From the NCBI GenBank assembly GCA_964385185.1, contig CAYLOA010000001.1, positions 12,507 through 76,506 on the forward strand: a DNA stretch of 64,000 nucleotides. Reading direction: 5' to 3'. Below, piece after piece: positions 1,544 through 36,645 of the stretch. Source of the stretch: an uncultured Methanosarcinales archaeon. Its GTDB lineage: Archaea; Nanobdellota; Nanobdellia; Woesearchaeales; CALCXY01. A program made the translations under genes and the position numbers. The notes below the pieces were generated by a model, which made no database searches, was not told the origin of the DNA, and worked only from the letters and a program-made list of their open reading frames with translations. Positions within the stretch are counted from its first letter, which is position 1, and every line of letters starts with the position of its first letter.

Positions 1544-2533
1544 TTGTCTATGGATATTGTAAGATTTGATGAATACATGGAAACCATATTTGTTGATAAC
1601 CATACGAAAATAGGTAATGATTGGGCAAATCCTTTTTCCCGAGCCGAAATTCTTACAGAAAATAACAGAAAACTCAAGCCACAATATGAAATGGAATCTG
1701 AATGGCACAAATCACTACAAGAAGTACTAGTTCATATTGAACAGGAAGGAGGAATCAAAGAAGGAGCATTCTACGAGCATATGTTTGCAATTAATAGTAT
1801 TGCAAGACACATCACCCATTTAACATATCATGGGGATCTAGAAAATGCATGGTTACCAGATGATAGAGCAGGTGTACTAGCAACACTAGAACAATCTGCT
1901 CGATTCCCTGAAGATAAAATCTATAGAAACCAAAATATTAACAGTACACGTAGTGGATGGGAAGGTACATTATTCGATAGAGAATTTACACCACATCTAT
2001 CTCATTTTAGGATGTACCATCAAGGTCATAGAGATACACTTAATGTAAAAACTGTCGATGTAAATGATTTAATAAAGGGAATAGAAAATTTTTGTCTTGA
2101 TTTCAGTAAAGATAATTATACAGTTGATATTCAACTTCCGTATTCCGCTAAAGAATTTGAAGGTTATGTAGGAAGATTCAATGAAGAGTTTGGGAATACA
2201 ATAAGGATTAGATCGGTAAATGATGAATGTCATTCAGTAATGGTAGAATTTCCTGAGAATCCAACCGATTTAGGAAGAAAATTTGAACAATATGGCCAAG
2301 AATTAGGAATAAATGTTGAATTAAACTTTGGCCCTAGAATGCCATATCTTTCTGGTGAGTTAGATGAAAGAGATATTAATCTATTTGCAGGACCTCAACT
2401 AGAAATAGATGGAAGTGAAATTAGATATGATGCTACTGAACATGCTAAATGCAGTACAGCATTCTTTCCTCATTTGAATTTAGAAATGACTCTACCTTTA
2501 ATAAAAAAATACGTACAAGAAAAAATAAAATAA
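1544..2533 (+). CDS. hypothetical protein
   Basis: 329-aa ORF with complex composition and no antisense competitor of comparable length. I recognise no motif. Confidence 0.5.
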   Translation: MSMDIVRFDEYMETIFVDNHTKIGNDWANPFSRAEILTENNRKLKPQYEMESEWHKSLQEVLVHIEQEGGIKEGAFYEHMFAINSIARHITHLTYHGDLENAWLPDDRAGVLATLEQSARFPEDKIYRNQNINSTRSGWEGTLFDREFTPHLSHFRMYHQGHRDTLNVKTVDVNDLIKGIENFCLDFSKDNYTVDIQLPYSAKEFEGYVGRFNEEFGNTIRIRSVNDECHSVMVEFPENPTDLGRKFEQYGQELGINVELNFGPRMPYLSGELDERDINLFAGPQLEIDGSEIRYDATEHAKCSTAFFPHLNLEMTLPLIKKYVQEKIK

Positions 2534-8851: not shown

Positions 8852-10183
8852 TTAATTAAAAGCTCCTGGATCAAAGTTAGGAGGTCTATTCACATCAGCA
8901 ACATTAATAGTAATTTCTTTTGTCACTGTGTTAAATCCATCCGTAGCAGTAATCACAACAGGATGACTTCCTGAATCCTGGAAATCAGTCTGAAATCGAT
9001 CTGTAACCATCCATCCTGAGTACGTTAGTGCTATATCATCACCTTCAGGATCTGATGTAACCACATCAAGAACAACCAAGTCTCCTTCATTGTAGCTCAA
9101 GACATCCGAAATCTCTAGTATAGGTGGATTATTAGGGCTTCGAACACTCACGGTAACATCTTTTGTCACGGTATCACTACCATCAGAGACACTCACCGTA
9201 ATTCGATATTCTCCCAAATCGTCAGTTGAAGTTTCCCAAGTACCATCATTCTTAACAGGACTTGAAAAGCTCATACTCAAGACATCATTATCTGGATCTT
9301 CAGATACAACAGCTAATGATAAAGATTGTCCTGCAACAACATCTAATCCTGTAACACTTCGAATAACAGGTGGTCGATTTACGTTATTAACAACAACAAT
9401 TACATTTTCTGTTGTACTTCGTTGACCATCTGAAGCAGTTACCTTAACAGTATAGGTACCTGCACTGGAAAAGTCAGTAGCTTTCTCTTTAGAGTTCATC
9501 CAACCAGAGATAGTAATAGTAGTTCTATCAGAATCTGGATCTGAAGCAGTTGGATTAATCTTCACTGTCTCACCCTCATTCACAAAAACACTCTTTTTAA
9601 CTCGAACAATAGGTGCTTTGTTCTTAGATTCAACGAATAAAATAATATCTTGATTTGTTTGTTGTTTTCCATCAGACGCAATAATTGAAACTTTATACTC
9701 TCCTGCATCTCCTACACGAGTCTGCCATTGGCCAAATTCATTTAAAGGAGCAGAAAATGTATATTGAATAGTATCTCCATCTGGATCTGTTGCTCGCAAA
9801 TTAGGAAAACTAACAAACTCTCCTTCGGTAACTGTCTTTCGTGGAAGTTCTACAACAGTAGCTTCAGTCTCACCTGTAATAATCTCCTCAGATGTTTCAA
9901 TAACTACAGCTCCCGTAGGAGTTTCACTCATTTCAACTTCAACAACAGGTTCTTCTTCGACCGTTTCAGACTGTTCTTCTATAACTTGTTCAACTTTCTC
10001 TTCAATACTCGTTTCTTCCTCTTCTACGTCAACACACACTAAATCTCCATTAACATCCCTAATCAATTGACTAGGAGGCTCACAGATAGTGTCCTCAGCA
10101 GCTGGAAGTACGAAATATTCACATCCAGATAAAAAGAGTACAAGAACTGCTATTGTTAAAATTGTTTTTTTCATAATCAACAC
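8852..10183 (-). CDS. secreted lipoprotein with four cadherin-like/Ig-like repeats
   Basis: Signal peptide plus LSGC lipobox. Four repeats each carry an xDPDxD motif: TDPDGDTIQYTFS, SDPDSDRTTITISGWM, EDPDNDVLSMSFSS and SDPEGDDIALTYSGWM. Confidence 0.7.
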   Translation of the reverse strand: MLIMKKTILTIAVLVLFLSGCEYFVLPAAEDTICEPPSQLIRDVNGDLVCVDVEEEETSIEEKVEQVIEEQSETVEEEPVVEVEMSETPTGAVVIETSEEIITGETEATVVELPRKTVTEGEFVSFPNLRATDPDGDTIQYTFSAPLNEFGQWQTRVGDAGEYKVSIIASDGKQQTNQDIILFVESKNKAPIVRVKKSVFVNEGETVKINPTASDPDSDRTTITISGWMNSKEKATDFSSAGTYTVKVTASDGQRSTTENVIVVVNNVNRPPVIRSVTGLDVVAGQSLSLAVVSEDPDNDVLSMSFSSPVKNDGTWETSTDDLGEYRITVSVSDGSDTVTKDVTVSVRSPNNPPILEISDVLSYNEGDLVVLDVVTSDPEGDDIALTYSGWMVTDRFQTDFQDSGSHPVVITATDGFNTVTKEITINVADVNRPPNFDPGAFN

Positions 10184-10257: not shown

Positions 10258-10896
10258 TTACATTGGATGGTGTTGTCGTCTAAATCCTAAAAGCCATCCT
10301 AAAAACACACAGACGAGACCGACAAGAACACTATCAATGATAATACGAACGAAATAATCTCTAAAGAATTGCCAAGGATACATCCTAATCAATAGATCTT
10401 GAGAACTAAATACCCAAGTCCCACTGGAAAAAAATAAGACATGAAAAACATGAAATAAAGGAATAAATAATAATGATCCTACAATCAAAACCAACCCTGA
10501 TCCTAAAATACTCACACCACTGAGTAAAAAAAATCGTTGCAACATAGAAAAAAGAGAACTACTCATAATAATCAACACTAAAAGACTAGCAAAGAGCAAA
10601 ACCAATGCTATCCACCATGCCCAATTAAACCCTTGCATGAGGACTTTAACATCCCTTAAATGACTGATCTCCCGATCTGTATAACCAACATCTTTTCCAA
10701 ATAATACACTATCATCTGAGATATATTCCAAAAATAAAGAATGAATCTTTCCAGCACCCTCAACTCGATCATAACTCCCATGTTTCTCTAACAATCCTGT
10801 ATAGAACGACTCATCATGAAGAAGAAATTGATAATTTCCAATAAAGACAATAAAACAAAGAGAAATGACTGGGATGAGATAGGCAGCGTTCCTCAT
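10258..10896 (-). CDS. integral membrane protein, unknown function
   Basis: Several predicted TM helices. Length 212 aa. Confidence 0.55.
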   Translation of the reverse strand: MRNAAYLIPVISLCFIVFIGNYQFLLHDESFYTGLLEKHGSYDRVEGAGKIHSLFLEYISDDSVLFGKDVGYTDREISHLRDVKVLMQGFNWAWWIALVLLFASLLVLIIMSSSLFSMLQRFFLLSGVSILGSGLVLIVGSLLFIPLFHVFHVLFFSSGTWVFSSQDLLIRMYPWQFFRDYFVRIIIDSVLVGLVCVFLGWLLGFRRQHHPM

Positions 10897-11434: not shown

Positions 11435-12385
11435 GTGGGTGTTATGAGAAGAAAAGTTGTAAAGCATGGTCCAGCTACGTATATTATTTCTTTACCCTCT
11501 AAATGGGTAAAAAGATATAATATTGCTAAAGGGGATGAACTAGAATTAGAAGAAGAAGGTAAAACTATAGTCATTTCTACAGAAAGAGGGAATAAATTAG
11601 GAAAAGTAGAGGTAGACTTATCTGGATTGGATAGAACTTCTATTATCTACAAGATTAGGTCATTATACAAACTAGGATATGATGAGCTGAATCTTACTTT
11701 TGATAATCAATCAACAACACATTATAGATTAAAAGACAACAAGACAGTTGTTTCTGTTATTAATGAAGAAGTATCAAGACTCCCCGGAATGGAATTATTA
11801 CAACAAAGAACAAATAATTGCATAGTTAAATCACTCTCAGAGCTTTCATTTAGTGAATTTGATACCTTCTTAAGAAGAATATTTTTACTCTTAATGGATG
11901 CCAGCAATGACCTTGCTACAGGCATTCTTACAAATGATAAAGAATTATTAAGAACTATAGAAGAAAAACACAACAACATTACCCGGTTTATCAACTTCTG
12001 TCAAAGGTTACTGAACAAACATGGATTTCCAGATTATATTAAAACATGCTGTATGTTAAAAGTAATTTTAGTATTAGATAAAACATTAGACACCTTAAAA
12101 AATACTGCAAGGATTGCTTATAATAGTAATATGAAAGAAGGCAAAAACCTTAAAGAAACTCTATTTAATGTGAATGCAGCTATAAAATCCTATTATGAAC
12201 TATTCTATAAATTTGACAATCAAAAAGTACAACAAATCTCCCAATTAAAAGATACCATGCTAAAAAATCTTCAAAGTTGCCCAGAAAAATTATCCAAAGA
12301 AGAATTCTTGATAACAGGACATATTACCTCTATAATTGAACTAATAGCTGGTGGTATGGAAGCTAGGATTGCTTTAGAGTATTAA
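11435..12385 (+). CDS. phosphate uptake regulator-like protein (N-terminal AbrB/SpoVT DNA-binding domain fused to PhoU domain)
   Basis: N-terminus VVKHGPATYIISLPSKWVKRYNIAKGDELELEEEGKTIVIS is a swapped-hairpin AbrB/SpoVT fold signature. The long helical C-terminal part is PhoU-like. Confidence 0.65.
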   Translation: MGVMRRKVVKHGPATYIISLPSKWVKRYNIAKGDELELEEEGKTIVISTERGNKLGKVEVDLSGLDRTSIIYKIRSLYKLGYDELNLTFDNQSTTHYRLKDNKTVVSVINEEVSRLPGMELLQQRTNNCIVKSLSELSFSEFDTFLRRIFLLLMDASNDLATGILTNDKELLRTIEEKHNNITRFINFCQRLLNKHGFPDYIKTCCMLKVILVLDKTLDTLKNTARIAYNSNMKEGKNLKETLFNVNAAIKSYYELFYKFDNQKVQQISQLKDTMLKNLQSCPEKLSKEEFLITGHITSIIELIAGGMEARIALEY

Positions 12386-13788
12386 CCAAACCGATGTCCT
12401 TTTAGAATTTGAGATAAGTTTTCTACATCCGTAGCCAGTTCTGGCTCCAATTGGCTTGAAGTCCGTGCATGTATATTGCCTAACTGTTGCGCACTTACTA
12501 AAGTATGATCAAAAGTAGTACATCCATAAAATGCTTCCTGGTGAGCAACAATTTCTTCCTCAGACTGTACATTTTCTCTATTCTCCTTCTGACGTGCATG
12601 AATTATTGCAGGATTCTCTTGAAGAAGAACTGTCCTAACAAAAGTCTGATACCTTTCTCTTATTTTTTCCAAATTTCTTGGATCAGTTTGAGTTAATATT
12701 ACATCATACCCTCTTTGCATATTAGGAAAGATTTCAGCTTCATCAATACCTACCCAGTAAGAATCATGTAATTGATAGGTAAGAGAAAACTGAGAATTAT
12801 CTATTATATCAACATCACCAGATACATGAAATTTATATTGTCCTTCTATCTCACCGTCTCGCAAACCTCGAGAAGTTGTTGGACGTCCTAACTGAGTCCA
12901 AGGACATGCAGTCTGAACTCCATCAGCAGTCCAGGACTTACCTACCCCTGAAGGTCCACAAATTAACCATAAAGTAGGATCTCCTTTTTGTAATTTTGAT
13001 ACAAGAGCTTCTTTTCGTTTTTTTAATGCCGAGTCAATCTTAGAAATATATAAACCCATCTGAAAAGGCTTTGTTACATAAAATTCAGAAATATCATGAA
13101 TTCGAGCAAAATCTGCAGTATCCTTTTTCTCAGACATAAGCACCAATTCTACTAGTGGATATTTTTTATGCAAATGTTCAGCTAACACTAAACCATCATC
13201 TTCGGTATGCACTTGATTATTAACTATGGCTAAATCAATATGCTCCACTCTGGCTATTTGGAGAGCTTCGTCTATATCACCTGTACTGAAAACAGAATAA
13301 CCACTGGGTGAATATAATCTATCTAACTCAGATTCGTACTCTCTATTATGCTCAAAAACTAATATAGCTCCTTGATCCTTTATTTTTGGAGATCTTTTAC
13401 TTTGCACCCTCACTTGATAATCAATAGTACTTACTAATTTAGAATAATCTACAATGGGTTTTTCAAAATAACCCAATATGCCATTTTCCTTTGCCTCATT
13501 AGCATGCAACATTGCATCTTGAACATTAATATCCTCACCAGTAATATAAATAATAGGAATAGTCGGATCTCCTGCATGAATCCCTGCAGCTACATGTTGA
13601 CCAGTAGTATCTGGCAAATTAAGGTCTGTAATTACCAAATCAATACCACCCTTTTCAAAATGAGCAGCACCTTCCTTTCCAGTTTTTGCAGTAAGGACAT
13701 CATAATTATACTCCTTCAAAATAGCTGCAGTTGCATCTCTAAATGTAGAATTGTAGTCTATAAGTAATAGTGTTCCATTAATACTCAT
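12382..13788 (-). CDS. response regulator with tandem receiver domains (second degenerate) fused to guanylate kinase-like domain
   Basis: REC1 has LLLID, LVITDLNLPD, IIYITG and FEKP. REC2 has ILVFEHN, LAIVNNQ and VTKP, so the phospho-acceptor Asp is replaced by Asn. The guanylate-kinase domain shows GPSGVGKS, TTSRGLRDGEIEGQYKFHVS and DVILTQTD. Confidence 0.75.
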   Translation of the reverse strand: MSINGTLLLIDYNSTFRDATAAILKEYNYDVLTAKTGKEGAAHFEKGGIDLVITDLNLPDTTGQHVAAGIHAGDPTIPIIYITGEDINVQDAMLHANEAKENGILGYFEKPIVDYSKLVSTIDYQVRVQSKRSPKIKDQGAILVFEHNREYESELDRLYSPSGYSVFSTGDIDEALQIARVEHIDLAIVNNQVHTEDDGLVLAEHLHKKYPLVELVLMSEKKDTADFARIHDISEFYVTKPFQMGLYISKIDSALKKRKEALVSKLQKGDPTLWLICGPSGVGKSWTADGVQTACPWTQLGRPTTSRGLRDGEIEGQYKFHVSGDVDIIDNSQFSLTYQLHDSYWVGIDEAEIFPNMQRGYDVILTQTDPRNLEKIRERYQTFVRTVLLQENPAIIHARQKENRENVQSEEEIVAHQEAFYGCTTFDHTLVSAQQLGNIHARTSSQLEPELATDVENLSQILKGHRFG

Positions 13789-13823: not shown

Positions 13824-14294
13824 TTACCTAAACCAACCAACAACGGTAATAATGACTCGTCCAAAGCCTAATTTTAATTTATTTCCAAATGTAACTGCTT
13901 TGTAACTTAAATCTCCAGAACTAAGCGCTTCAGAAAGTGCATTAAAAGGATCACTTGCCTCAAAAATATCTTCCATGGTTTGTTCAGTAGTCGTCACAAT
14001 TAAAGTGGGATTTTCCAACGTTCTATCGTCAATCTCCAACACCTTACCATCTTCAGTAACAATACCAATCAAAGCTTCACTAAAATCATGTCGTGTAACC
14101 TGTAAATTGATTCGTTCATTGCCAAACAGTCCAACAACAAAACCTGGCATGGCAATAGTATTCAGAGTTTCCTTAACCGTTGAAAGATCATCTAAAGAAA
14201 CACTGCTTGCCTGAACAGGTGTCCCATCCAACTCAGGAACTTCTGCTGCAAAAACAGACATAGATAATAAAATCAATAATACGATATATTTCAT
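13824..14294 (-). CDS. secreted protein, unknown function
   Basis: I placed the start at the internal Met (MKYIVLLILLSMSVFA, a signal peptide). This removes the overlap with metG. Confidence 0.5.
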   Translation of the reverse strand: MKYIVLLILLSMSVFAAEVPELDGTPVQASSVSLDDLSTVKETLNTIAMPGFVVGLFGNERINLQVTRHDFSEALIGIVTEDGKVLEIDDRTLENPTLIVTTTEQTMEDIFEASDPFNALSEALSSGDLSYKAVTFGNKLKLGFGRVIITVVGWFR

Positions 14295-14325
14295 AAGAAT
14301 ACTGTTAACAAGGTCATATATAAAA

Positions 14326-16275
14326 CTACCTAACCTTCCAACCGTCTTCACCATTTATAGATAATTCTTCCACTTCTGACTTTAAAACTACACCATTGGC
14401 AACCACTTTATGATCTTTAACAACCAATTTTATAGTATCAAAAAATTCGTCAATAGTAATTTGATCTGTATTATTCTTTAAAGGACCCGCTTGCACAACA
14501 TCTCCTGGTTTGCTTTTTGAAGCACTCACCAGTACAATTTTCTTATCATCGGGGTCAGATGCAGCCAGTAACATTCCTTGACTTTCTTTGCCACGTAACT
14601 TTGCAAACTTAAGATTGCTCACAACTACAATATGTTTGCCAAGTAACTCATCCTTAGCGTAATGTCCTCGAACACCTGCAACAATCTGCCGTTTCTCTGC
14701 CCCTAAATCTACTTGTAGTACCATAAGTTTATCAGCATCAGGATGTTCTTCAGCACCAATTATTTTTCCTACCTTTAAATTTGCTAAAAATTTCTCTTCT
14801 TCTTTCAGTTCGATCTTAGGGAACAAAACATCAGAGGCAGTTATGGCATAATTAGCTTCCCCCCATTTCAACTTAAAAAAAGGTAATAGCTCAAAACCAA
14901 GTTGTCGTCTTATAGTATCTACACTTTGAGGAATTAAAGGATACAAATAACTGCACACAAATCGAATACCTTCTAAAACATTATACAATACTTCCTTTAA
15001 TTTTTCTTCATCTGTGATTTTCCAAGGTTCTTCTTTAGTAATATATACATTGATACTTACCAAACTCTTCCATACGATATCAATAGCACCATTCAAATCA
15101 TTACTATCGATTAAAACATCTGCTTTAGTCAACTCTTTTTGTAATTGCAATGCATCTTTCCCACTTTTACTCAAATTTCCTGCAAAACTTCTACCTACAA
15201 GAGTAGTAATTCTTTTGACCAAATTACCTAAATCATTTGCTAACTCATTATTGTACCGAGTAATCAATCCTTGTTCAGTAAAGTCTCCATCTGCTCCAAA
15301 AGGAATCTCTCGTAACAAATAGTATCGTAATGCATCTGCACCATAATCATCCACTAAAGCAATAGGATCCACAGTAGCTCCAGAACTTTTAGACATTTTC
15401 TTACCATCAAGCGTAATATACCCATGCACTAAAACACTTTCAGGAACTTTAATTCCAGCACTAAGCAACATACTCGGCCAGATAACAGAGTGAAACCAAT
15501 TAATTCCTTTCCCTATAACGTGAGCATTGGCTGGCCAGAATTTCTTAAAGGTTTCCCCATCAGGATAATCAATCCCAGACAGATAGTTGATCAAAGCATC
15601 AAACCAGACATAGATTTTATGTTTGTCATCAATCGGAACAGGGATTCCCCAATCTCGATCTACTCTTGAAACTGATATATCTTTAAGGCCATCTTGCTTT
15701 ACTCGAGCTAGAACTTCATTTCTCCAATGTTCAGGTTGTACAAATCCTTTAGTCTCTAGTAATTTAATAATTTGCTTCTCATATTTAGACATTTTAAAGA
15801 AATAACTATCTTCTTTTAGTAATTGGGGCACTTTATTATGCTCGGGACATTTTCCACCCACTAATTGTGTTTCCGTTAAAAATTCTTCACATCCAATGCA
15901 ATAAAAACCTTCATAAGTTCCTTTATAGATATCTCCTTTGTCAAAAACCTTTTTGAAAATATCTTTACTAACATCAAAATGCTTAGGAGTGGTTGTTCTA
16001 ATAAAAAAATCATTACTTAAATTAAGTTTTTTACACAATTCTTCAAAAATCTTGGAGTTATTATCCACAAACTCTTTAACCGGAATACCTACCTCTTTAG
16101 CAGCCTGTTCATTCTTCTCAGCATTCTCATCTGTTCCTGTTAAATAGAAAGTATCATCCCCCCTTTGCCTATGCCATCTAGCTAGAAAGTCTGCCAGAAT
16201 CTTTTCATATGCGTGACCAATATGAGGTCTTGAATTCACATAATCAATTGCCGTTGTGATGTAATACTTTGCCAT
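14326..16275 (-). CDS. metG: methionine--tRNA ligase with C-terminal tRNA-binding (EMAP-like) domain
   Basis: Class I HIGH motif (RPHIGHAYE), a KMSKS motif and CxxC zinc knuckles. The C-terminal OB/EMAP-like domain is GKIIGAEEHPDADKLMVLQVDLG. Length 649 aa. Confidence 0.9.
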   Translation of the reverse strand: MAKYYITTAIDYVNSRPHIGHAYEKILADFLARWHRQRGDDTFYLTGTDENAEKNEQAAKEVGIPVKEFVDNNSKIFEELCKKLNLSNDFFIRTTTPKHFDVSKDIFKKVFDKGDIYKGTYEGFYCIGCEEFLTETQLVGGKCPEHNKVPQLLKEDSYFFKMSKYEKQIIKLLETKGFVQPEHWRNEVLARVKQDGLKDISVSRVDRDWGIPVPIDDKHKIYVWFDALINYLSGIDYPDGETFKKFWPANAHVIGKGINWFHSVIWPSMLLSAGIKVPESVLVHGYITLDGKKMSKSSGATVDPIALVDDYGADALRYYLLREIPFGADGDFTEQGLITRYNNELANDLGNLVKRITTLVGRSFAGNLSKSGKDALQLQKELTKADVLIDSNDLNGAIDIVWKSLVSINVYITKEEPWKITDEEKLKEVLYNVLEGIRFVCSYLYPLIPQSVDTIRRQLGFELLPFFKLKWGEANYAITASDVLFPKIELKEEEKFLANLKVGKIIGAEEHPDADKLMVLQVDLGAEKRQIVAGVRGHYAKDELLGKHIVVVSNLKFAKLRGKESQGMLLAASDPDDKKIVLVSASKSKPGDVVQAGPLKNNTDQITIDEFFDTIKLVVKDHKVVANGVVLKSEVEELSINGEDGWKVR

Positions 16276-17256: not shown

Positions 17257-17329
17257 TCTCCAGAATATGGTTTAATAAATGTTTCTAAAATACCTAACCT
17301 TTATAAAACACCCAAAACACCATATTACT

Positions 17330-18241
17330 ATGAATATGAACCGTAGAGAAATGATGAGTGGTACCATAGGTGGACTAGTTGCAGCTTTACTATCAAACGG
17401 ACAAGCAGAACAGAGTCCTGAAATAGAAATTCTTGAACCAGATAGAGACAAAGTTGGAGCAGAATTTAATGCAAAACACCACCCATTCGCTTCTCCATTA
17501 CATAGCAGATACAGTTTTCTTCATACTATTCCTGCACATCCAGATAATCCATGGTATAATGGTGATAAATTTATTTCCTTTAGCAAACTTACCAAAATTA
17601 ATCCCCAAGTAAAATGGAGAATGAACGGTGATCTGTTAGACCGTCAAGATAAAGTACTATTGGGATCATTTGCATCGCCTTTGATACTGAATGGGCCTTT
17701 AAAAAATCAAGTATATCGAGCAGATGATCTCATTTTATTTCGGCCAATGCATGATGGCTCATATATCATGAGATTAAAGACAGAAACACGGGCAATCTTA
17801 TATCTACAATCTCCAAATTGTATAGACGAACAGGGAAAATCTATTGATCAATTTACTGGAGAGAAACTTCCCAACATTGATGAACGGAAGCTGACATTCA
17901 AATATGTAGATCAATTAGTTCCAGGAAAACAAACAAAGGACACAATTTTAAATCCTCATTTTAATTTAGATAGACAAAATGATCAATTTAGGGATTTCAA
18001 TTCAAGGGGACAATTCAAAATGTATCCCTCAATTACAATCAATTCCAACTTAACTTTGTCTCCAGATCTTGGACATACTACATCATTTCCAGTTCAGGAA
18101 GGAGAAAAAGGAGTTAAATTTTACTTTGCAGGTCAGGGACAATATCATTCCATTTGTGTGAACACTAACAAAGGAGTACATGAAAAAGTATGCACCTTTA
18201 ACCCATACGATAACACCTATCGAACTGATAGAAAGAAGTAG
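17330..18241 (+). CDS. secreted hypothetical protein with RR-containing signal peptide
   Basis: I set the start at MNMNRREMMSGTIGGLVAALLS, which is Tat-like. I recognise no domain. Confidence 0.5.
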   Translation: MNMNRREMMSGTIGGLVAALLSNGQAEQSPEIEILEPDRDKVGAEFNAKHHPFASPLHSRYSFLHTIPAHPDNPWYNGDKFISFSKLTKINPQVKWRMNGDLLDRQDKVLLGSFASPLILNGPLKNQVYRADDLILFRPMHDGSYIMRLKTETRAILYLQSPNCIDEQGKSIDQFTGEKLPNIDERKLTFKYVDQLVPGKQTKDTILNPHFNLDRQNDQFRDFNSRGQFKMYPSITINSNLTLSPDLGHTTSFPVQEGEKGVKFYFAGQGQYHSICVNTNKGVHEKVCTFNPYDNTYRTDRKK

Positions 18242-25352: not shown

Positions 25353-26909
25353 ATGGCAGACGTTTGGAACCCACACTTGGAAGCTTCATCTAAAATATTG
25401 ATGAAGTTTGGATTTATTAAGAAAGAGTATGCTAAAGAGTACTCCATTCTTCCAGAAAAAGAGAGAAATAAGAAAATAGACAATCTAACAGAAGATGAAG
25501 CAGACAAACAAGCTGATTTGGATGAAGAAGAGGTAGGAAAAGATCAATTAGTCTTAGTAAATTTCCCCAAACCTACACATAAATATAGATTAGTGTATGA
25601 AACACACAAAGGAAACATAGAGGAAACCTATTTTTGGATTCTTAACTATCTCAGATATGATATGCACTTCACCCAGATTGAAAAAATAACAGATATCTTT
25701 GCAGCTGCTGAAACAAGTGCGTTTGAAGGTGTGAGACAACAACGAGTAGGACTCCAACAAGACAAAGTCTCTGGATTTTTAGCCACCATTGGAAAAATGG
25801 TCAAAGAATTGTTCCAATTAGTGAGAGAACTTAGAATTATCGATGAAAGATTGGCCTACTATGAAGACTCATTCACCACATCTAAAAGTCATGAGAGTGC
25901 TGAAATCACATTGAAAGGTATTTGGATCGATCAAGTAGAGGGAGGATCAAAAAACCCAGCTTCCATTTTCGGATTATCTAAAGAACTACAATTTACAACA
26001 TTACCTGATCTCTTTTTTGCAATCCACCCTAAAGAACCAACCGATGTGGATGAAGTTGTGGATGCACTAGAATTCAATCGAAAGGTCAAAGAAGTCCTCA
26101 AAAGAAAATTAAGATCATTTATGGAATGGAAAGTAAGAACCTATGATGAGATGAAAAATAGAAGAATTTTCACCATTCAATATCTGAGACAACACTTTGA
26201 TATCATCAAAATGTATATGCAATGGGTAAAACCCTACTTAAGAACCATCAAAAGATTAGGATACGACATTAAGAAGACAAAATCTCCTGATCTTGTTGCC
26301 GCTTTCGAAGGATCCATGATTGAGGTAGAATTTGCTGGAGTATTCTACCCAAGAGGAAACAAAGAGTATAGAACTGTCTTGGTCATGCATTTTGACCTAC
26401 GTACACGTCCACAGATGAACTTTCAGGCAGAAGGATACAATCGAGGCCCACTACATACAGGAGAAGCTAAAGTCACCTGGAGAGGGTATACCTGGACCGA
26501 TGAAGAACTCAAAAAATACATTGGTATGCGAGAATCAGAAGACATGGAGTTATTAGCTTCCGTAGATCGATCAGTAGAAGCAGCCATGGAAGCTTTAGGA
26601 GATGAACTAGAAGGATATCTGCAACAAGCAGGAGAAGATATCTCCTTTGAAAAAGAACTAAAAGGAAAAAAGAAAGAAAAAGAGAAGCCAAAAATGCCAG
26701 GATTATTTGATCCGTTATTTTCAGTCTTCAAAGGAGTAGGTGATGCAGCTAAGTTTGCAACACCTGACATTAAGATGAAAAAAAAGAAAGCAACATTAAG
26801 TTCCTATCAAAAAGAAAAAGAAATTGCTGCTGCTAAAAAAGATTTAGTAGTAAGAATGTGGACTTGTTATAAAAATTACAAGAAGAGTCATAAAATGATT
26901 GCGTGGTAA
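25353..26909 (+). CDS. hypothetical protein (518 aa), first gene of uncharacterised operon
   Basis: Long complex ORF with no recognisable motif. The C-terminus is K/E-rich. Confidence 0.6.
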   Translation: MADVWNPHLEASSKILMKFGFIKKEYAKEYSILPEKERNKKIDNLTEDEADKQADLDEEEVGKDQLVLVNFPKPTHKYRLVYETHKGNIEETYFWILNYLRYDMHFTQIEKITDIFAAAETSAFEGVRQQRVGLQQDKVSGFLATIGKMVKELFQLVRELRIIDERLAYYEDSFTTSKSHESAEITLKGIWIDQVEGGSKNPASIFGLSKELQFTTLPDLFFAIHPKEPTDVDEVVDALEFNRKVKEVLKRKLRSFMEWKVRTYDEMKNRRIFTIQYLRQHFDIIKMYMQWVKPYLRTIKRLGYDIKKTKSPDLVAAFEGSMIEVEFAGVFYPRGNKEYRTVLVMHFDLRTRPQMNFQAEGYNRGPLHTGEAKVTWRGYTWTDEELKKYIGMRESEDMELLASVDRSVEAAMEALGDELEGYLQQAGEDISFEKELKGKKKEKEKPKMPGLFDPLFSVFKGVGDAAKFATPDIKMKKKKATLSSYQKEKEIAAAKKDLVVRMWTCYKNYKKSHKMIAW

Positions 26910-29695: not shown

Positions 29696-32623
29696 ATGAT
29701 ATCAAATGTAAAAACACTATTCCATAGTCCAACTATAGTATCAGCGCCAGCTGCACAGTTTCATGCACACTTTTTTTCTGAAGAACAATTTTTAACAGGT
29801 GAAGGAGAATTAAAAAGTACTCCTGTGAGTAAAAAAACTTCTGATGAATCCAGATTGTTTGTAAGACTTGAAATTTCAGGTCCTAGCCTTGTTGCAAGAA
29901 TTGTAAGCGAATATGCACAACCTGGAATTGTAAATAAAGTTATGCAATCACTCTATTCTATTGATAGATCAGCAGCTTCTCTAGTAAATACTGAAAAATC
30001 ACAATCCTATCAACATGCAATTCAAACAGAATTTCCTACAATTAAGAGTAGACCTGCTGCAAATTATAATATTGAAGCTAAAGAAAAACCTGCAATAATT
30101 CATGAATTGCAACCTGCTCCAGAAGCACAAGTGCAAGTCTATGTCCCTCAAGATGTTTTAGTACAAACTACAGAAAGAGAGTTTGAACAAACAACAAAAA
30201 TAAAGGAACAACTCTACGCACAATATAATAATGATCAGGTATCAAGTTATCAGGCTACTCATGAATCACATATGAATGAAAATCCATTCTATCAAGTTTC
30301 AGGATTACATCTCCTTCAAGAAAAAGACATTGTAGAATATAATCCTAATCAACCTGAAAATAGAGAGATGGATGAAAGAAAGATTGAATATACTGCTCAG
30401 CCACAGATAGAAAATATCAAAAATAATTATTTAGAACACAATGCTGTATCATTTGAATTACCTATATTCAATCAAGAAAAAGAAATTCTACGACCTCAGA
30501 GAGATTTTGAACAGAGAAAAAATAACTATCAACCAAAGGAAAAAATAAGAAGAGACTTTCCAACATATACTAAAATTGATATGTCAATTGACTTAGAAAA
30601 TCCTACTAGAGATCATAGTCTAGATACAGAATCAATATCATATGAAATAACTGCAGAAACTTCAACTCCAATACATCAAACTTCAAGATTAGAAGCAAAA
30701 ATCCAACCACAAAATCAAACTGAAACATACACAGCAAAATCTACTCAAGAGAGACAATCTTCAGATATTACTTGGGAAGTACAGTCTTCTGAAGATGCAC
30801 GTCCTTTTCTTGGACATTCAATTGAATACTCTCACAAAACAGATTCTACTCCATCTCGTGATACAGATTACTCAGAACCAGCTATCACATACTCAGAAGA
30901 AGAAAGATTAGAAATTAAACTTGATCAAGATCCACATAAAGAAAATAACGAAAGACAGCCAAAAAGAAAAAGAGAATATCACCAGAAGAAGGAATCCAAA
31001 AAAGAACCTACTAAAAAATCTCATAAAATTGAATACAAAGATAATCCAACAACATCAACATATGAACAAAAGAAAGAATATACAGCAGAACCAACTAAAA
31101 TACATGAATTCAGAGAAAAAGAATTGAATATTCCAGAGTTTAGAAATGAATCTCATGAATTTCAATATCAAAAAGCAAAAGAAATTAAAACAGAAGTAAT
31201 CAAAAGTAACCAATTTGAAAAAAGAAATGAAGAATATGATTCTCCAGAATTAAAGGATACAAAAATCCATGACTTTAATCAATATAAAATAAAAAACAAT
31301 GCTTACACATCTAATCTAGATTCATTAGTCACAGAAAGTGAAGTTGAATCAGCACCACCTTGTGCTGTGAATTCATTAGAAACTGACAAGCCATGTACTG
31401 TAAATAGTTTAGAAAATATTGAAGACGGAACCTCTATAGTGGGTATTGTAAAAACAACTCAGGCAAATAACTGTTATGCACCTAAAACAGAAGAATTTTC
31501 AAAAGTAGAATCAACAAGAGATTTTGAATCATTTGGAGTGGACATATTAGCACAAAAAGGAATCGAATCAGTTGAAGATTTAATTGATAAAGAAGGAAAT
31601 ATTGACATAACAAAATTCGGAGATTCATATTCCTTACTGGGTGGAGGAGTAATGATAACCATCACAGAAGAGCAAGAAAATAGTTCTTTCGCATATGGAA
31701 TTAGAGGACAAGATAGATCAGATGTGGGAACTACCTATACAGGCATGGCAAATGAAGTAGGAGCTATACTCTTTAAAATCTTTGAAAAAAATGGTTTAAC
31801 CTTAGACATCACCACAATGGATGAAATCATTGAAGGAGAAAACTACACCGGTTCAAATCTTTATGTCACCGAAGTTACCGGTGGAAAAAGAGGATTAGAG
31901 AAAAAATTAAACCAAGTGATAGGTAAAGAAATAACTATTAACGATGTTCAATATTCAATTGTAGTAAAAGATGCTACAACAGGCCAAGAAATCTCTTGTA
32001 ACGCTTCTACAGGATTAACACAAGGAAACTACACTATAGATGTTATTACTAAAATTGGATCTGCAAATTTACAATCAGAAGTGTCTATGTCATTAGATGA
32101 AATAAACCTTGATAGGAACTTAGATAATGGATATGAAACTCCAAAATTTGCACATCTTGTCCATGAAGACACCGGAGAAAGACTTGATGGATATGCACTC
32201 CCAGAATTGGCATTTGAGTCTAATGGATATGAAACCATCATGGATCAATTCATAAGTTCATTAGAATCTGCAAATGCAGACTTTGAAGTAAAAACAATGA
32301 ACACACAAGAATATGGACAGGAGAAAGGAACCAACTTAAGATATGTTCGAACCATTGAAGGAGTGATTGACAATTATATGAAATTACACCCTAATGCACA
32401 AAAAGAAAAAGTAGGAATCTTATTAATGGAAACTGAATCTGGAAAAATTATGAGAGAACCAGGATATGGCGCTGAAGGATTGGACTATGCAGAAAAAGCT
32501 GGAAAGTCATATGTCCCAGTAATTTATGAATTAGGTGCTGATTTATCAAACTCACATGTTGAATTGCCTAAGCAAAATCGTGAAAATACAATTGATACCA
32601 TCTTCTCTAACTTAGCAGCATGA
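29696..32623 (+). CDS. hypothetical protein (975 aa) with central Q/E/N/K-rich disordered region and about 430-aa C-terminal globular domain
   Basis: No signal peptide. Contains a short internal repeat (PPCAVNSLETDKPCTVNSLEN). It overlaps the downstream methyltransferase by 4 nt (ATGA). Confidence 0.6.
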   Translation: MISNVKTLFHSPTIVSAPAAQFHAHFFSEEQFLTGEGELKSTPVSKKTSDESRLFVRLEISGPSLVARIVSEYAQPGIVNKVMQSLYSIDRSAASLVNTEKSQSYQHAIQTEFPTIKSRPAANYNIEAKEKPAIIHELQPAPEAQVQVYVPQDVLVQTTEREFEQTTKIKEQLYAQYNNDQVSSYQATHESHMNENPFYQVSGLHLLQEKDIVEYNPNQPENREMDERKIEYTAQPQIENIKNNYLEHNAVSFELPIFNQEKEILRPQRDFEQRKNNYQPKEKIRRDFPTYTKIDMSIDLENPTRDHSLDTESISYEITAETSTPIHQTSRLEAKIQPQNQTETYTAKSTQERQSSDITWEVQSSEDARPFLGHSIEYSHKTDSTPSRDTDYSEPAITYSEEERLEIKLDQDPHKENNERQPKRKREYHQKKESKKEPTKKSHKIEYKDNPTTSTYEQKKEYTAEPTKIHEFREKELNIPEFRNESHEFQYQKAKEIKTEVIKSNQFEKRNEEYDSPELKDTKIHDFNQYKIKNNAYTSNLDSLVTESEVESAPPCAVNSLETDKPCTVNSLENIEDGTSIVGIVKTTQANNCYAPKTEEFSKVESTRDFESFGVDILAQKGIESVEDLIDKEGNIDITKFGDSYSLLGGGVMITITEEQENSSFAYGIRGQDRSDVGTTYTGMANEVGAILFKIFEKNGLTLDITTMDEIIEGENYTGSNLYVTEVTGGKRGLEKKLNQVIGKEITINDVQYSIVVKDATTGQEISCNASTGLTQGNYTIDVITKIGSANLQSEVSMSLDEINLDRNLDNGYETPKFAHLVHEDTGERLDGYALPELAFESNGYETIMDQFISSLESANADFEVKTMNTQEYGQEKGTNLRYVRTIEGVIDNYMKLHPNAQKEKVGILLMETESGKIMREPGYGAEGLDYAEKAGKSYVPVIYELGADLSNSHVELPKQNRENTIDTIFSNLAA

Positions 32624-35430: not shown

Positions 35431-36645
35431 CTAACGACCTATGGCTTGAATAGCCAGTGCAGTGGTATATAACCCACTCGTGGCATTCTGAGGTATGATA
35501 AACTTTAAACTAAGTGGAATAGTTGCATCCAATCCTAAATTAATATTCTTTAGTAAATTCTGTGAAGCAGAGGAGAAATCTATCCCATTAAAACTAAACA
35601 GTGTATCACTAAAACTTCTCCCTTCACTGACATTTTTAGCACGAACACTCAAATCTAAAGGAATATTTCCAATATTTTTTATCGTAGGACTATCTGTGGT
35701 ACTTACTTTTTCGTCCCCTTTGATAAAAACCTCTTCACCGGGTCGTGCCTTTTGAACACTAATTGCAGAAGTGTCTAAAAAAATACCGGCCAAAGGCAAT
35801 ACAGTGACCGCAAATTGAAGAGGTAGTGTGGTATGTTTGCCCGTGGCGGTAATCGTGATATTATACTCTCCTGGTAATTGGTGATACCAAAAGGAAAACG
35901 TTCCAGTGTATTGAGAATGACTGTCATTAAGAGTTGCACCTTCCAATAAAACTGTTGAATTAAATATGTCCATCTTCACAGAAGTTATGACATCATTTCC
36001 TCCAAGAGTTATGTTTACAAAAACAGATCTCTTTTTTCCAGGAACAGGACTCACCTGTACTCCTTCTGAAAATAAATCGTCATCAATAGTAAAATTATAC
36101 AATGATAGTGTGTAAGCCTCTACTTCAACAGAAATAAGTAAAAGTCCATCAGATTGAACTGTACTACTGTTTCTTGGATCTGGTGAAAGAGCCTCAAATG
36201 TATTCGTATAACTTCCATTATCTAATTTTCTTTGTAAAGATTCTCTCACATCAACTGCATCTTCTCCCCAAGTTACTGTATCAACTATCTTTTCACCATC
36301 TAGAAGAGAAACAAATCCATCATCATTTGCAAGTGTTATCGCTTCAGCATAATCTGATTCATCCCAATTGAGATCGTCTCGTTTCTCCCATCCTGTATCA
36401 GTGACCAAATAATAAGAACCAGGAAGAATATGAGCTTCTGAAGGTAAGGTTACATCTTTAACAGAAGATTTAGTTGATAGAACCCATTCACTTATGGAAA
36501 CAGTAGTATCACCATTATTAAACAACTCTACAAACTCTCCTCCATTCTCTGTCCCCTTGGGATCAAAATAGACCTCAGTGATTAAAACTTCAGCCTGAAC
36601 AACACCACAAACTAATAATAACATAATTACTGCAATAATTCTCAT
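35431..36645 (-). CDS. secreted lamin-tail-domain (LTD) protein with Ig-like domains
   Basis: After a signal peptide, LITEVYFDPKGTENGGEFVELFNNGDTTVSISEWVLS matches the LTD consensus (I-EV...EFVEL-N-G...LSGW-L). Confidence 0.65.
   Translation of the reverse strand: MRIIAVIMLLLVCGVVQAEVLITEVYFDPKGTENGGEFVELFNNGDTTVSISEWVLSTKSSVKDVTLPSEAHILPGSYYLVTDTGWEKRDDLNWDESDYAEAITLANDDGFVSLLDGEKIVDTVTWGEDAVDVRESLQRKLDNGSYTNTFEALSPDPRNSSTVQSDGLLLISVEVEAYTLSLYNFTIDDDLFSEGVQVSPVPGKKRSVFVNITLGGNDVITSVKMDIFNSTVLLEGATLNDSHSQYTGTFSFWYHQLPGEYNITITATGKHTTLPLQFAVTVLPLAGIFLDTSAISVQKARPGEEVFIKGDEKVSTTDSPTIKNIGNIPLDLSVRAKNVSEGRSFSDTLFSFNGIDFSSASQNLLKNINLGLDATIPLSLKFIIPQNATSGLYTTALAIQAIGR

What the first reader, a model, noticed from the sequence alone, without database searches (positions are those of the whole stretch)
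12382..13788. Response regulator with receiver + pseudo-receiver fused to a guanylate-kinase domain, convergent with an AbrB-PhoU regulator
REC1 keeps the acidic pocket, the phospho-acceptor Asp (LVITDLNLPD), Thr and Lys. REC2 has Glu/Asn at those positions (ILVFEHN, LAIVNNQ), so it looks like a non-phosphorylatable pseudo-receiver. The C-terminal domain has a P-loop GPSGVGKS and a GMP-binding-like RPTTSRGLRDGEIEGQYKFHVS, so it looks like guanylate kinase. A guanylate kinase as the output domain of a two-component regulator would directly couple a phosphorelay to the guanine-nucleotide pool. Canonical gmk is often unidentified in archaea. The gene's 3' end overlaps by 4 nt the 3' end of a PhoU-domain regulator (11435-12385), which hints at phosphate-responsive control. 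No histidine kinase is in the window.
Basis: partly seen in the sequence, partly recalled or inferred. Interest (0 to 1): 0.6.

Follow-up and report, generated by a model that had tools for sequence, protein, structure and literature searches.

The report
Receiver-fused guanylate-kinase-like protein, PhoU-paired
A tiny marine archaeon carries a signalling protein whose output end is descended from guanylate kinase but has lost the guanine-binding residues; it always sits beside a PhoU-like DNA-binding protein, so it looks like an undescribed regulatory pair, not a control on GTP synthesis.

Summary
The 468-aa ORF at 12382-13788(-) is real and intact. It has two receiver (REC) domains and a C-terminal domain with the guanylate kinase (GK) fold (Foldseek TM 0.72-0.77; custom GK profile E 2.5e-18). 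It scores below every curated GK cutoff. It keeps the P-loop, Arg38, Arg41, Glu44 and LID Arg131. It lacks what defines GMP recognition: Ser34 is Pro (the known inactivating change), Glu69 is deleted, Tyr50 is Lys, Tyr78 is Val and Ser80 is Ile. None of 23 relatives has Tyr50 or Glu69.

Two new results emerged. First, the gene belongs to a small family from DPANN archaea (ultra-small archaea). The family is almost always adjacent to an orthologous AbrB + PhoU-fold protein: 8 of 8 metagenome contexts and 14 of 17 reference-genome loci, nearly all convergent with touching stop codons. Second, the regulator evolves unusually fast. It is 31% identical where syntenic neighbours are 63-89% identical, and it is absent from one syntenic relative.

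Best reading: a receiver-gated, nucleotide-binding GK-fold module that works with the AbrB-PhoU regulator. The ligand is unknown.

The parts
12382..13788 (-). Gene for the 468-aa REC-REC'-GK-like protein
   Evidence: ORF. Identical or 99% identical copies occur on 6 metagenome contigs. The AF2 model has pLDDT 83.3 and pTM 0.81.
13405..13773 (-). REC1 (residues 6-128). Acceptor Asp54, Thr83 and Lys110 are present, but the second acidic-pocket residue is Tyr12.
   Evidence: PF00072 match over residues 8-122. Active-site residues read D-Y-D-T-K. Foldseek matches the tandem REC of PleD.
13003..13368 (-). REC2 (residues 141-262), a pseudo-receiver with Asn at the acceptor position. It ends in a long linker helix (244-267).
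   Evidence: PF00072 34 bits when scanned alone. Active-site residues read E-H-N-S-K. Secondary structure.
12385..12993 (-). GK-fold C-terminal domain (residues 266-468)
   Evidence: phmmer against PDB guanylate kinases gives E 3e-8. TIGR03263 34.7 bits and PF00625 19.3 bits. A custom GK profile gives 60 bits, E 2.5e-18. Foldseek matches GKs at TM 0.72-0.77 and rmsd about 3 A.
12934..12957 (-). Walker A / P-loop GPSGVGKS (residues 278-285)
   Evidence: Read from the sequence. Lys is invariant in 23 of 23 family members and Gly13 is present in 22 of 23.
12850..12879 (-). Phosphate-clamp motif TTSRGLRDGE (residues 304-313; R307 = yeast R38, R310 = R41, E313 = E44). It is preceded by Pro at the Ser34 position.
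   Evidence: Alignments.
11435..12385 (+). Partner gene: AbrB/SpoVT domain + alpha/beta domain + PhoU-like six-helix bundle. It is 316 aa from GTG 11435; the true start is more likely ATG 11444, giving 313 aa as called on other contigs.
   Evidence: PF04014 36.2 bits. hhalign to a canonical AbrB+PhoU paralogue gives 97.4% probability, E 1.4e-11. The AF2 model has pLDDT 88.5. Its top 16 Foldseek PDB hits are all PhoU or PhoU-like. More than 293 homologue clusters exist, mostly Woesearchaeota and Nanoarchaeota.
11849..12379 (+). PhoU-like helical bundle of the partner (residues 139-315), carrying the conserved LDKxLDxxKxxAR motif
12382..12385 (.). TTAA palindrome shared by the two convergent stop codons

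Best explanation
The gene encodes a response-regulator-type protein of a DPANN (Woesearchaeota-like) archaeon. Its output domain descends from guanylate kinase but has been repurposed.

Shown:
- The domain has the GK fold and is homologous to GKs.
- The family conserves the phosphoryl-transfer core: the P-loop Lys/Gly, the phosphate clamp Arg38/Arg41/Glu44, and LID Arg135.
- The family has lost the guanine pocket (Ser34, Glu69, Ser/Thr80) and the two tyrosines that hold GMP.
- The gene is the near-obligate neighbour of one orthologous group of AbrB + PhoU-fold DNA-binding proteins.

Inferred: the tandem receivers gate a nucleotide-binding GK-fold module. In this copy REC1 is possibly still phosphorylatable and REC2 is a pseudo-receiver. 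The module's phosphate clamp binds a phosphorylated ligand other than GMP. The module acts on or with the AbrB-PhoU partner, most likely by direct contact with the PhoU-like bundle. The partner supplies the DNA-binding output that the regulator itself lacks.

This is loosely analogous to bacterial PhoU, which bridges the Pst phosphate transporter (whose ATPase is PstB) and the two-component kinase PhoR.

I cannot say whether the domain transfers phosphate to a new acceptor or only senses or hydrolyses nucleotide. I lean towards an active nucleotide-binding site, because the P-loop Lys is kept in 23 of 23 members.
For: Homology and fold:
- PDB GK hits by sequence at E 3e-8.
- The family profile hits annotated GKs at 1e-19.
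- 9 of 11 family members match PF00625 at E<=0.01, best 4.8e-14.
- Foldseek matches GKs at TM 0.72-0.77.

Residue pattern:
- In 23 family members: K14 23/23, R38 21/23, R41 17/23, E44 19/23, R135 20/23.
- Also in those 23: Y50 0/23, E69 0/23, S34 1/23, Ser/Thr80 1/23.
- The 13 genuine GKs aligned have Y50 and E69 in 13/13, and S34 and Y78 in 12/13.

Conserved pairing:
- The partner is adjacent in 8 of 8 metagenome contexts of members only 20-31% identical to the query (window; relatives).
- Seven of those are convergent with touching or overlapping stops; one is in tandem.
- In reference genomes, 14 of 17 evaluable loci with an orthologous partner (>=250 bits) have a GK-like gene convergent immediately downstream.
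- None of the 26 loci with lower-scoring AbrB-PhoU paralogues (L032-L057) has one beside the partner; the only family-profile GK hit among them is a 16-bit P-loop match about 3 kb away in L038.
- The GK-like domain is the constant element. REC number varies: two, one (L030, L031) or none recognised (L029).

Other points:
- The partner has the PhoU fold.
- Tandem REC resembles PleD.
- In most members at least one REC keeps the acceptor Asp, but which one differs between members.
- There are no significant hits to defence-system models.
- The role of PhoU in bridging the transporter and PhoR is documented in PMC13577022 and PMC9239213.
Against: - No experiment and no complex model supports a physical interaction. 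Adjacency in convergent orientation excludes co-transcription, so the link is by conserved neighbourhood only.
- In this particular protein REC1 lacks the second acidic residue (Tyr12), LID R135 aligns to Asn (an Arg follows one residue later) and R146 is Ile. Both phosphorylation and catalysis may be impaired.
- Three loci with orthologous partners lack the GK-like gene (L014, L020, L022), so the partner can work without it.
- The family's very fast divergence (21-31% identity in all 66 pairs) could reflect relaxed constraint rather than function.
- Only 7 population variants were seen (4 synonymous, 3 non-synonymous). That is too few to demonstrate purifying selection.
Confidence: 0.6

Rival explanations
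1. One reading: the C-terminal domain is a working guanylate kinase, possibly the organism's only one. Receiver phosphorylation would then directly tune GMP-to-GDP conversion.
For: - The GK fold and end-to-end homology are real.
- The P-loop, R38, R41, E44 and R131 are present.
- No other GK-like ORF lies in the 64-kb window.
- JGI pipelines auto-name relatives 'guanylate kinase'.
Against: - S34 is Pro, a substitution reported to impair GMP binding and activity (PMC4325336).
- E69 is deleted, Y50 is Lys, Y78 is Val and S80 is Ile.
- None of 23 relatives has Y50 or E69, whereas the 13 genuine GKs aligned have both in 13/13.
- Scores are far below curated cutoffs.
- The gene is 31% identical where neighbours are 63-89% identical, and it is absent in syntenic L014. 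That is unlike an essential enzyme.
- The claim that archaea often lack gmk could not be verified in the literature held.
Confidence: 0.06
2. The GK-like domain is a catalytically dead protein-binding module, like the GK domain of animal MAGUK scaffold proteins. It would bind a phosphorylated peptide, for example on the partner or on its own receiver.
For: - The window protein, P0032, P0033 and L026 carry Pro at the Ser34/35 position. This is the MAGUK-defining change that converts the enzyme into a phosphoprotein-binding domain (PMC4325336, PMC3335814).
- The phosphate clamp R38/R41 is kept.
- LID R146 is lost in most members.
- The conserved partner gives a candidate binding target.
Against: - The pattern is the opposite of MAGUKs. 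From my own knowledge, MAGUK GK domains lose the P-loop and keep the GMP-site residues. This family keeps the P-loop (K14 23/23, G13 22/23) and R135 (20/23) and loses the GMP-site residues.
- Pro at position 34 is found in only 4 of 23 members.
Confidence: 0.17
3. The domain is an active small-molecule kinase with a new phosphorylated acceptor, such as another nucleotide or a sugar phosphate as in PhnN. The product or substrate would be the ligand sensed by the PhoU-like partner, with no need for direct protein contact.
For: - The phosphoryl-transfer core is conserved, including both the ATP site and the acceptor-phosphate clamp.
- There is a secondary match to PhnN, the ribose 1,5-bisphosphokinase (TIGR02322, 24 bits).
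- Some members have the PhnN-like P-loop ending GKD (P0051, L028).
- In L020 the same partner is paired with a different phospho-transfer enzyme, of the histidine phosphatase superfamily.
Against: - The acceptor pocket is not conserved within the family. Positions 50, 69, 78 and 80 vary widely, which argues against one defined small substrate.
- The PhnN score is far below its cutoff of 156.
- A metabolic enzyme evolving this fast would be unusual.
Confidence: 0.17

Closest known systems
Guanylate kinase (Gmk/Guk1; Pfam PF00625, TIGR03263)
   Same: The fold is the same (CORE, NMP-binding and LID parts), with Foldseek TM 0.72-0.77. The P-loop GxxGxGK[ST], the TTRxxRxGE phosphate clamp and LID Arg131 are shared.
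   Different: Ser34, Tyr50, Glu69, Tyr78, Ser/Thr80 and Arg146 are absent. Scores fall below curated cutoffs. The domain is fused to two receivers, evolves fast and is dispensable in a syntenic relative.
PleD-type response regulators (REC-REC'-enzymatic output)
   Same: A phospho-acceptor receiver plus an adaptor or pseudo-receiver sit ahead of a nucleotide-binding output domain. PleD is the best Foldseek PDB hit for the N-terminal half (E 1.6e-11).
   Different: The output is a GK-fold P-loop domain, not GGDEF. Across the family either REC1 or REC2 can be the intact receiver. The host is archaeal (DPANN).
MAGUK GK protein-interaction domain (Dlg/PSD-95)
   Same: Both are GK-derived domains that have lost GMP kinase features. 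The window protein shares the Ser-to-Pro change at position 34/35.
   Different: MAGUK domains lose the P-loop and keep the GMP-site residues. This family keeps the P-loop and loses the guanine-site residues. The origin is independent and prokaryotic.
Bacterial PhoU with PstB and PhoR (Pho regulon signalling)
   Same: A PhoU-fold protein is functionally linked to a P-loop NTPase and to a two-component protein. Here the last two are fused in one polypeptide encoded next to the PhoU-like gene.
   Different: The partner carries its own AbrB DNA-binding domain. No Pst transporter or histidine kinase lies in the neighbourhood. The interaction is inferred, not shown.
PhnN ribose 1,5-bisphosphokinase (TIGR02322)
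   Same: It is a GK-superfamily kinase that uses a non-nucleotide phosphorylated acceptor. It gives a weak end-to-end match (24 bits).
   Different: The score is far below the 156-bit cutoff, and there is no phn operon context.

Membership tests
Guanylate kinase (EC 2.7.4.8; PF00625 / TIGR03263) | Profile score at or above the curated cutoff | tested here: not met
   PF00625 scores 19.3 bits against a cutoff of 25.2. It was not reported at all on the full-length protein. TIGR03263 scores 34.7 bits against 160.45.
Guanylate kinase (EC 2.7.4.8; PF00625 / TIGR03263) | GK three-part fold | tested here: met
   Foldseek PDB matches 6wct, 7s5e, 8egl and 2anb at TM (target) 0.72-0.77, rmsd 2.8-3.8 A, over about 205 columns.
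Guanylate kinase (EC 2.7.4.8; PF00625 / TIGR03263) | P-loop GxxGxGK[ST] | tested here: met
   GPSGVGKS at residues 278-285.
Guanylate kinase (EC 2.7.4.8; PF00625 / TIGR03263) | GMP phosphate ligands Arg38, Arg41, Tyr50 and Tyr78 (yeast numbering) | tested here: not met
   R307 and R310 are present, but Tyr50 is Lys and Tyr78 is Val.
Guanylate kinase (EC 2.7.4.8; PF00625 / TIGR03263) | Guanine recognition by Ser34, Glu69, Ser/Thr80 and Asp100 | tested here: not met
   Ser34 is Pro, Glu69 falls in a gap or aligns to Thr, and Ser80 is Ile. An Asp aligns near position 100 only after a 1-residue insertion. The role of these residues is described in PMC4325336.
Guanylate kinase (EC 2.7.4.8; PF00625 / TIGR03263) | LID arginines Arg131, Arg135 and Arg146 | tested here: inconclusive
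   Arg131 is present. Arg135 aligns to Asn, with an Arg one residue later. Arg146 aligns to Ile or Glu depending on the alignment.
Guanylate kinase (EC 2.7.4.8; PF00625 / TIGR03263) | GMP + ATP -> GDP + ADP activity | not testable with these tools
   This needs an enzyme assay.
Response regulator receiver (PF00072) | Profile score above the cutoff, twice | tested here: met
   88.3 bits with two matched stretches. REC2 alone scores 34.0 bits against 30.2.
Response regulator receiver (PF00072) | REC1: five active-site residues (CheY D12, D13, D57, T87, K109) | tested here: not met
   REC1 reads D-Y-D-T-K, so 4 of 5 are present and the acceptor Asp54 is kept. The strict definition comes from the preprint 10.1101/2025.06.23.661182.
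Response regulator receiver (PF00072) | REC2: five active-site residues | tested here: not met
   REC2 reads E-H-N-S-K, with no acceptor Asp, so it is a pseudo-receiver. Most relatives keep Asp at this position.
Response regulator receiver (PF00072) | Cognate histidine kinase | tested here: inconclusive
   None lies in the window or in any of the fetched contexts. The whole genome could not be searched.
MAGUK-type GK interaction domain | Pro at the Ser34/35 position | tested here: met
   Pro in 'GRPTTSR'.
MAGUK-type GK interaction domain | Degenerate P-loop with the GMP-site residues retained | tested here: not met
   The P-loop is intact and the GMP-site residues are lost. The MAGUK pattern itself is from my own knowledge.
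PhnN ribose 1,5-bisphosphokinase (TIGR02322) | Profile score above the cutoff | tested here: not met
   24 bits against 156.
AbrB-PhoU regulators (the neighbouring gene) | SpoVT/AbrB domain (PF04014) | tested here: met
   36.2 bits against 24.7. All 35 orthologues scanned match.
AbrB-PhoU regulators (the neighbouring gene) | PhoU domain (PF01895) by sequence | tested here: not met
   The window protein has no hit at E<=1. Only 4 of 35 orthologues hit at E<=0.01. The orthologue-only profile finds no PDB PhoU.
AbrB-PhoU regulators (the neighbouring gene) | PhoU six-helix-bundle fold, or homology to a canonical AbrB-PhoU protein | tested here: met
   The top 16 Foldseek hits are all PhoU or PhoU-like, with TM up to 0.74. 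hhalign to the canonical paralogue in L010 gives 97.4% probability, E 1.4e-11.
Known anti-phage defence / toxin-antitoxin systems (PADLOC) | Match to a defence-system model | tested here: not met
   The regulator gives only receiver-region noise (E >= 4e-4). The partner gives nothing.

The most novel reading that the evidence does not exclude
A second, independent repurposing of the guanylate kinase fold (after animal MAGUKs). In DPANN archaea a receiver-gated GK-fold P-loop module and an AbrB-PhoU DNA-binding protein would form a previously undescribed two-gene signalling unit. The GK-derived domain would sense or transfer phosphate to a non-GMP phosphorylated ligand and control the PhoU-like regulator. 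This would give these reduced genomes a new kind of two-component output.
Probability: 0.35. Interest if true: 0.7.

Novelty: new variant of a known kind. Interest (0 to 1): 0.5.

Why it matters
The headline idea, direct phosphorelay control of the GTP pool, does not hold. That prevents a wrong 'guanylate kinase' annotation, which automated pipelines already give to relatives.

What remains still has value.
- It is a lineage-specific response-regulator output domain that does not appear in the 2018 archaeal two-component census text or supplements.
- It is a natural case of the GK fold keeping its ATP site while losing its guanine site.
- It is tightly and anciently linked to one orthologous group of AbrB-PhoU regulators. 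That group is widespread in Woesearchaeota and Nanoarchaeota and has no known function.
- The regulator's extreme divergence rate, and the way the intact receiver switches between REC1 and REC2 among relatives, make it a useful system for studying how pseudo-receivers arise.
- Signalling in DPANN archaea is almost unstudied, and this gives a concrete gene pair that can be tested.

Tried and rejected
1. The word-indexed homologue search found nothing useful for the regulator. The full-length protein returned only a 99% identical cluster plus REC-only hits. The family profile returned only genuine GKs and one fragment. The family was found only by the exhaustive phmmer search with the C-terminal domain.
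2. Defence system or toxin-antitoxin reading (AbrB/MazE domain plus P-loop kinase): PADLOC gave no significant hit, and the convergent orientation does not fit an operon. Rejected.
3. PhnN-like assignment: the score is far below the cutoff and there is no phn context. Not adopted.
4. Replacement of the regulator by a foreign allele, to explain 31% identity inside a 63-89% identical block. The nearest relative of the window's GK-like domain is still the L007 protein P0032 (top hit, E 2.7e-30). The two share family-atypical residues (Pro34, Lys50, GK[ST]W). Accelerated vertical divergence is therefore more likely, though replacement is not excluded.
5. The partner-only profile against PDB sequences found no PhoU. 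The first positive result came from an alignment that included a canonical paralogue. I therefore relied on hhalign and on structure.
It was redone with homologues.
7. The afdb50 fold library was unavailable.
8. Literature searches found no paper on REC + guanylate kinase, on archaeal AbrB-PhoU function, on missing gmk in archaea, or on Woesearchaeota + response regulator + PhoU.
9. Population variation was too sparse for a dN/dS estimate.
Full report
OBSERVATION

The ORF at 12382..13788 on the minus strand is present as described: 468 aa, starting with ATG. The same protein, identical or 99% identical, is encoded on six independent marine metagenome contigs. It is therefore a real gene and not an assembly artefact.

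The host is an archaeon with about 34% G+C. The window encodes archaeal markers, including ribosomal protein S6e and NOG1. Relatives come from Candidatus Woesearchaeota, Nanoarchaeota and Aenigmatarchaeota genomes, which are DPANN archaea (ultra-small archaea with reduced genomes).

Pfam finds two receiver domains and nothing else above threshold on the full-length protein. The neighbour at 11435..12385(+) converges on the gene. The two stop codons share the palindrome TTAA at 12382-12385. The window holds no histidine kinase, no other receiver and no second GK-like ORF.

THE C-TERMINAL DOMAIN IS GK-DERIVED

Homology to guanylate kinase is secure.
- phmmer against PDB sequences hits Stenotrophomonas, Burkholderia and E. 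coli guanylate kinases, down to E 3e-8.
- A profile I built from 40 guanylate kinases hits only this ORF in the window, at E 2.5e-18.
- The family profile hits annotated guanylate kinases at 1e-19.
- 9 of 11 family members match PF00625 at E<=0.01.
- An AlphaFold2 model (pLDDT 83.3, pTM 0.81) superposes on solved guanylate kinases over their whole length, with TM 0.72-0.77 and rmsd about 3 A.

IT IS NOT A GMP KINASE

The window protein falls below every curated threshold.
- PF00625: 19.3 bits against 25.2.
- TIGR03263: 34.7 bits against 160.
- PhnN (TIGR02322): 24 bits against 156.

I aligned 23 family members with 13 genuine guanylate kinases. Numbering follows yeast Guk1.

| Position (role) | Family, of 23 | Window protein |
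|---|---|---|
| K14 (P-loop) | 23 | Lys |
| G13 (P-loop) | 22 | Gly |
| R38 (phosphate clamp) | 21 | Arg |
| R41 (phosphate clamp) | 17 | Arg |
| E44 (phosphate clamp) | 19 | Glu |
| R135 (LID) | 20 | Asn, with Arg one residue later |
| S34 (guanine) | 1 | Pro |
| Y50 (GMP phosphate) | 0 | Lys |
| E69 (guanine) | 0 | deleted |
| Y78 (GMP phosphate) | 6 | Val |
| Ser/Thr80 (guanine) | 1 | Ile |

In the genuine kinases Y50 and E69 are invariant (13/13), and S34 and Y78 are present in 12 of 13.

Ser35, Glu70 and Asp101 (numbering that counts the initiator Met) coordinate the guanine ring. The Ser35-to-Pro change alone is reported to drastically impair GMP binding and kinase activity, and to convert the enzyme into a protein-interaction domain (PMC4325336; see also PMC3335814).

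Two evolutionary facts point the same way.
- Between the window and a syntenic Tara Oceans scaffold (L007), MetRS is 85% identical, a radical-SAM protein 89%, and the AbrB-PhoU neighbour 88%. All other shared genes are 63-80% identical. This gene is only 31% identical (REC1 25%, REC2 22%, GK-like domain 41%).
- In another syntenic relative (L014) the gene is simply absent between the partner and the 176-aa/MetRS genes.

An essential nucleotide kinase would not be expected to behave like this.

THE RECEIVERS

REC1 has D11-Y12...D54...T83...K110. That is four of the five receiver active-site residues: the acceptor Asp is present, but the second metal-binding Asp is Tyr. REC2 has E-H-N-S-K, so it has no acceptor Asp. 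By the strict definition (bioRxiv 10.1101/2025.06.23.661182), REC2 is clearly a pseudo-receiver and REC1 is borderline.

Across the family the intact receiver can be either domain.
- REC1 only: L016, L018.
- REC2 only: L015, L017, P0033, P0054.
- Both: P0040, P0041, L021.
- Neither: P0034.

The N-terminal half matches the tandem receivers of PleD (Foldseek E 1.6e-11).

A FAMILY AND A CONSERVED PARTNER

The word-indexed search found no relatives with this architecture. The exhaustive phmmer search with the C-terminal domain did. It returned about ten representatives of 430-518 aa with the GK-like domain at the same C-terminal position. All are REC-REC-GK-like.

Their genomic contexts differ from one another, except for one feature. 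A protein of 308-344 aa with an N-terminal AbrB/SpoVT domain is adjacent in all 8 contexts examined. Seven are convergent with touching or overlapping stops, and one is in tandem (window; relatives).

I then used the partner as an anchor in species-representative genomes, which gave 44 loci.
- Of the 17 evaluable loci with an orthologous partner (>=250 bits to the partner profile), 14 have a GK-like gene convergent immediately downstream.
- None of the 26 loci with lower-scoring AbrB-PhoU paralogues has one beside the partner.
- The GK-like domain is the constant element. Two members have a single receiver (L030, L031) and one has no recognised receiver (L029).
- The exceptions are L014 (gene absent), L020 (a histidine-phosphatase-superfamily gene in its place) and L022.

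The partner is much better conserved than the regulator. Across all 66 pairwise comparisons the partner is 33-88% identical and the regulator 21-31%.

THE PARTNER IS AbrB + PhoU-LIKE

All 35 orthologues scanned match PF04014 (the AbrB/SpoVT domain), but only 4 match PF01895 (PhoU) weakly. The window protein does not match PhoU. An orthologue-only profile finds no PhoU among PDB sequences.

Three other lines of evidence support the PhoU assignment.
- hhalign against a canonical AbrB+PhoU paralogue in L010 gives 97.4% probability, E 1.4e-11, over 264 columns.
- The AlphaFold2 model (pLDDT 88.5) shows an AbrB-like N-terminus, an alpha/beta domain and six long helices.
- Its top 16 PDB matches are all PhoU or PhoU-like proteins, with TM up to 0.74. 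MazE matches the N-terminal domain.

MECHANISM

Shown:
- The domain has the GK fold and is homologous to GKs.
- The ATP site and phosphate clamp are conserved.
- The guanine pocket is lost.
- The gene is near-obligately adjacent to one orthologous group of AbrB-PhoU proteins.
- The receivers are variable.
- The regulator diverges fast.

Inferred: the receivers gate a nucleotide-binding GK-fold module. The module binds a phosphorylated ligand other than GMP. It acts with the AbrB-PhoU protein, which supplies the DNA-binding output.

The nearest functional analogy is bacterial PhoU. [quoted passage not shown]

I cannot decide between three options: a kinase with a new acceptor, an NTP-dependent switch, or a purely binding domain.
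- The invariant P-loop Lys argues against the MAGUK-like dead-domain option. MAGUK GK domains show the opposite pattern, with the P-loop lost and the GMP site kept (my own knowledge).
- The variable acceptor pocket argues against a single defined small-molecule substrate.

KNOWN OR NEW

PADLOC gives no significant hit, so this is not a known defence system. The 2018 census of archaeal two-component systems mentions no guanylate kinase, PhoU or AbrB output in its text or held supplements. Other searches found no description. Automated pipelines have labelled relatives 'CheY-like chemotaxis protein/guanylate kinase'.

I rate this a new variant of a known kind: a response regulator with an undescribed, GK-derived output domain and a conserved partner. 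It is not a new category.

VERDICT

The proposed function, control of the guanine-nucleotide pool, is not supported. The conserved DPANN gene pair and the regulator's unusual evolutionary behaviour are the results worth following. Interest is moderate.

Noticed in passing
L014:4932-6429 (Ca. Woesearchaeota MAG ERR599062_bin.4): The gene order matches the window (Lit, partner, 154-aa gene, MetRS), but the REC-REC-GK-like gene is absent. Only 22 bp separate the partner from the next gene.
   Followed up: partly
L020:5942-6760 (-): An orthologous AbrB-PhoU partner is convergent with a histidine-phosphatase-superfamily (PF00300) gene instead of the GK-like gene. This is another phospho-transfer enzyme in the same slot.
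   Followed up: partly
L049:5907-7259 (-): A paralogous AbrB-PhoU gene is convergent with a 451-aa protein. That protein has one receiver domain plus about 320 residues with no Pfam match, so pairing of AbrB-PhoU with a receiver protein may be broader than the GK-like family.
   Followed up: no
L010:1946-2893 (+): A canonical AbrB + PF01895 PhoU paralogue lies 4 kb from the regulator/partner pair on the same contig. The partner is therefore a specialised paralogue and not the organism's only AbrB-PhoU protein.
   Followed up: partly
L019:7685-9619 (-) and L009:10507-10875 (+): Additional receiver proteins sit beside the pair in some relatives: a REC-PAS protein with a weak TrmB-like match, and a single-domain receiver. 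No histidine kinase was seen in any context.
   Followed up: no
window 10258-10896 (-): This is a homologue of the bacterial lipoprotein intramolecular transacylase Lit (PF07314, E 1e-15) in an archaeon. It also lies near the partner gene in L007 and in the P0054 context.
   Followed up: no
window 13824-14354 (-): A 176-aa ORF with an N-terminal hydrophobic segment and no Pfam match. It overlaps the 3' end of the MetRS gene by 29 nt and is conserved in synteny (69% identical in L007; also present in L014).
   Followed up: no
window 29696-32623 (+), 25353-26909 (+), 42668-43915 (+), 1544-2533 (+), 17279-18241 (+): Large ORFs of 975, 518, 415, 329 and 320 aa have no Pfam match at E<=0.001.
   Followed up: no
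window 11435-11444: The partner's start is ambiguous. The longest ORF starts at GTG 11435, but gene calls on other contigs use ATG 11444 (313 aa, MRRKVV...).
   Followed up: partly
window 8852-10183 (-), 35431-36645 (-), 36739-39144 (-): These are probable surface proteins. One has repeated PKD/Big-like domains after an acidic linker. One has a lamin-tail domain. One is an 801-aa protein with Ig-like domains.
   Followed up: no
L001 and L002 versus window 12382-13788: Population variants carry 7 codon changes in the regulator (4 synonymous, 3 non-synonymous) and none in the adjacent partner gene.
   Followed up: partly
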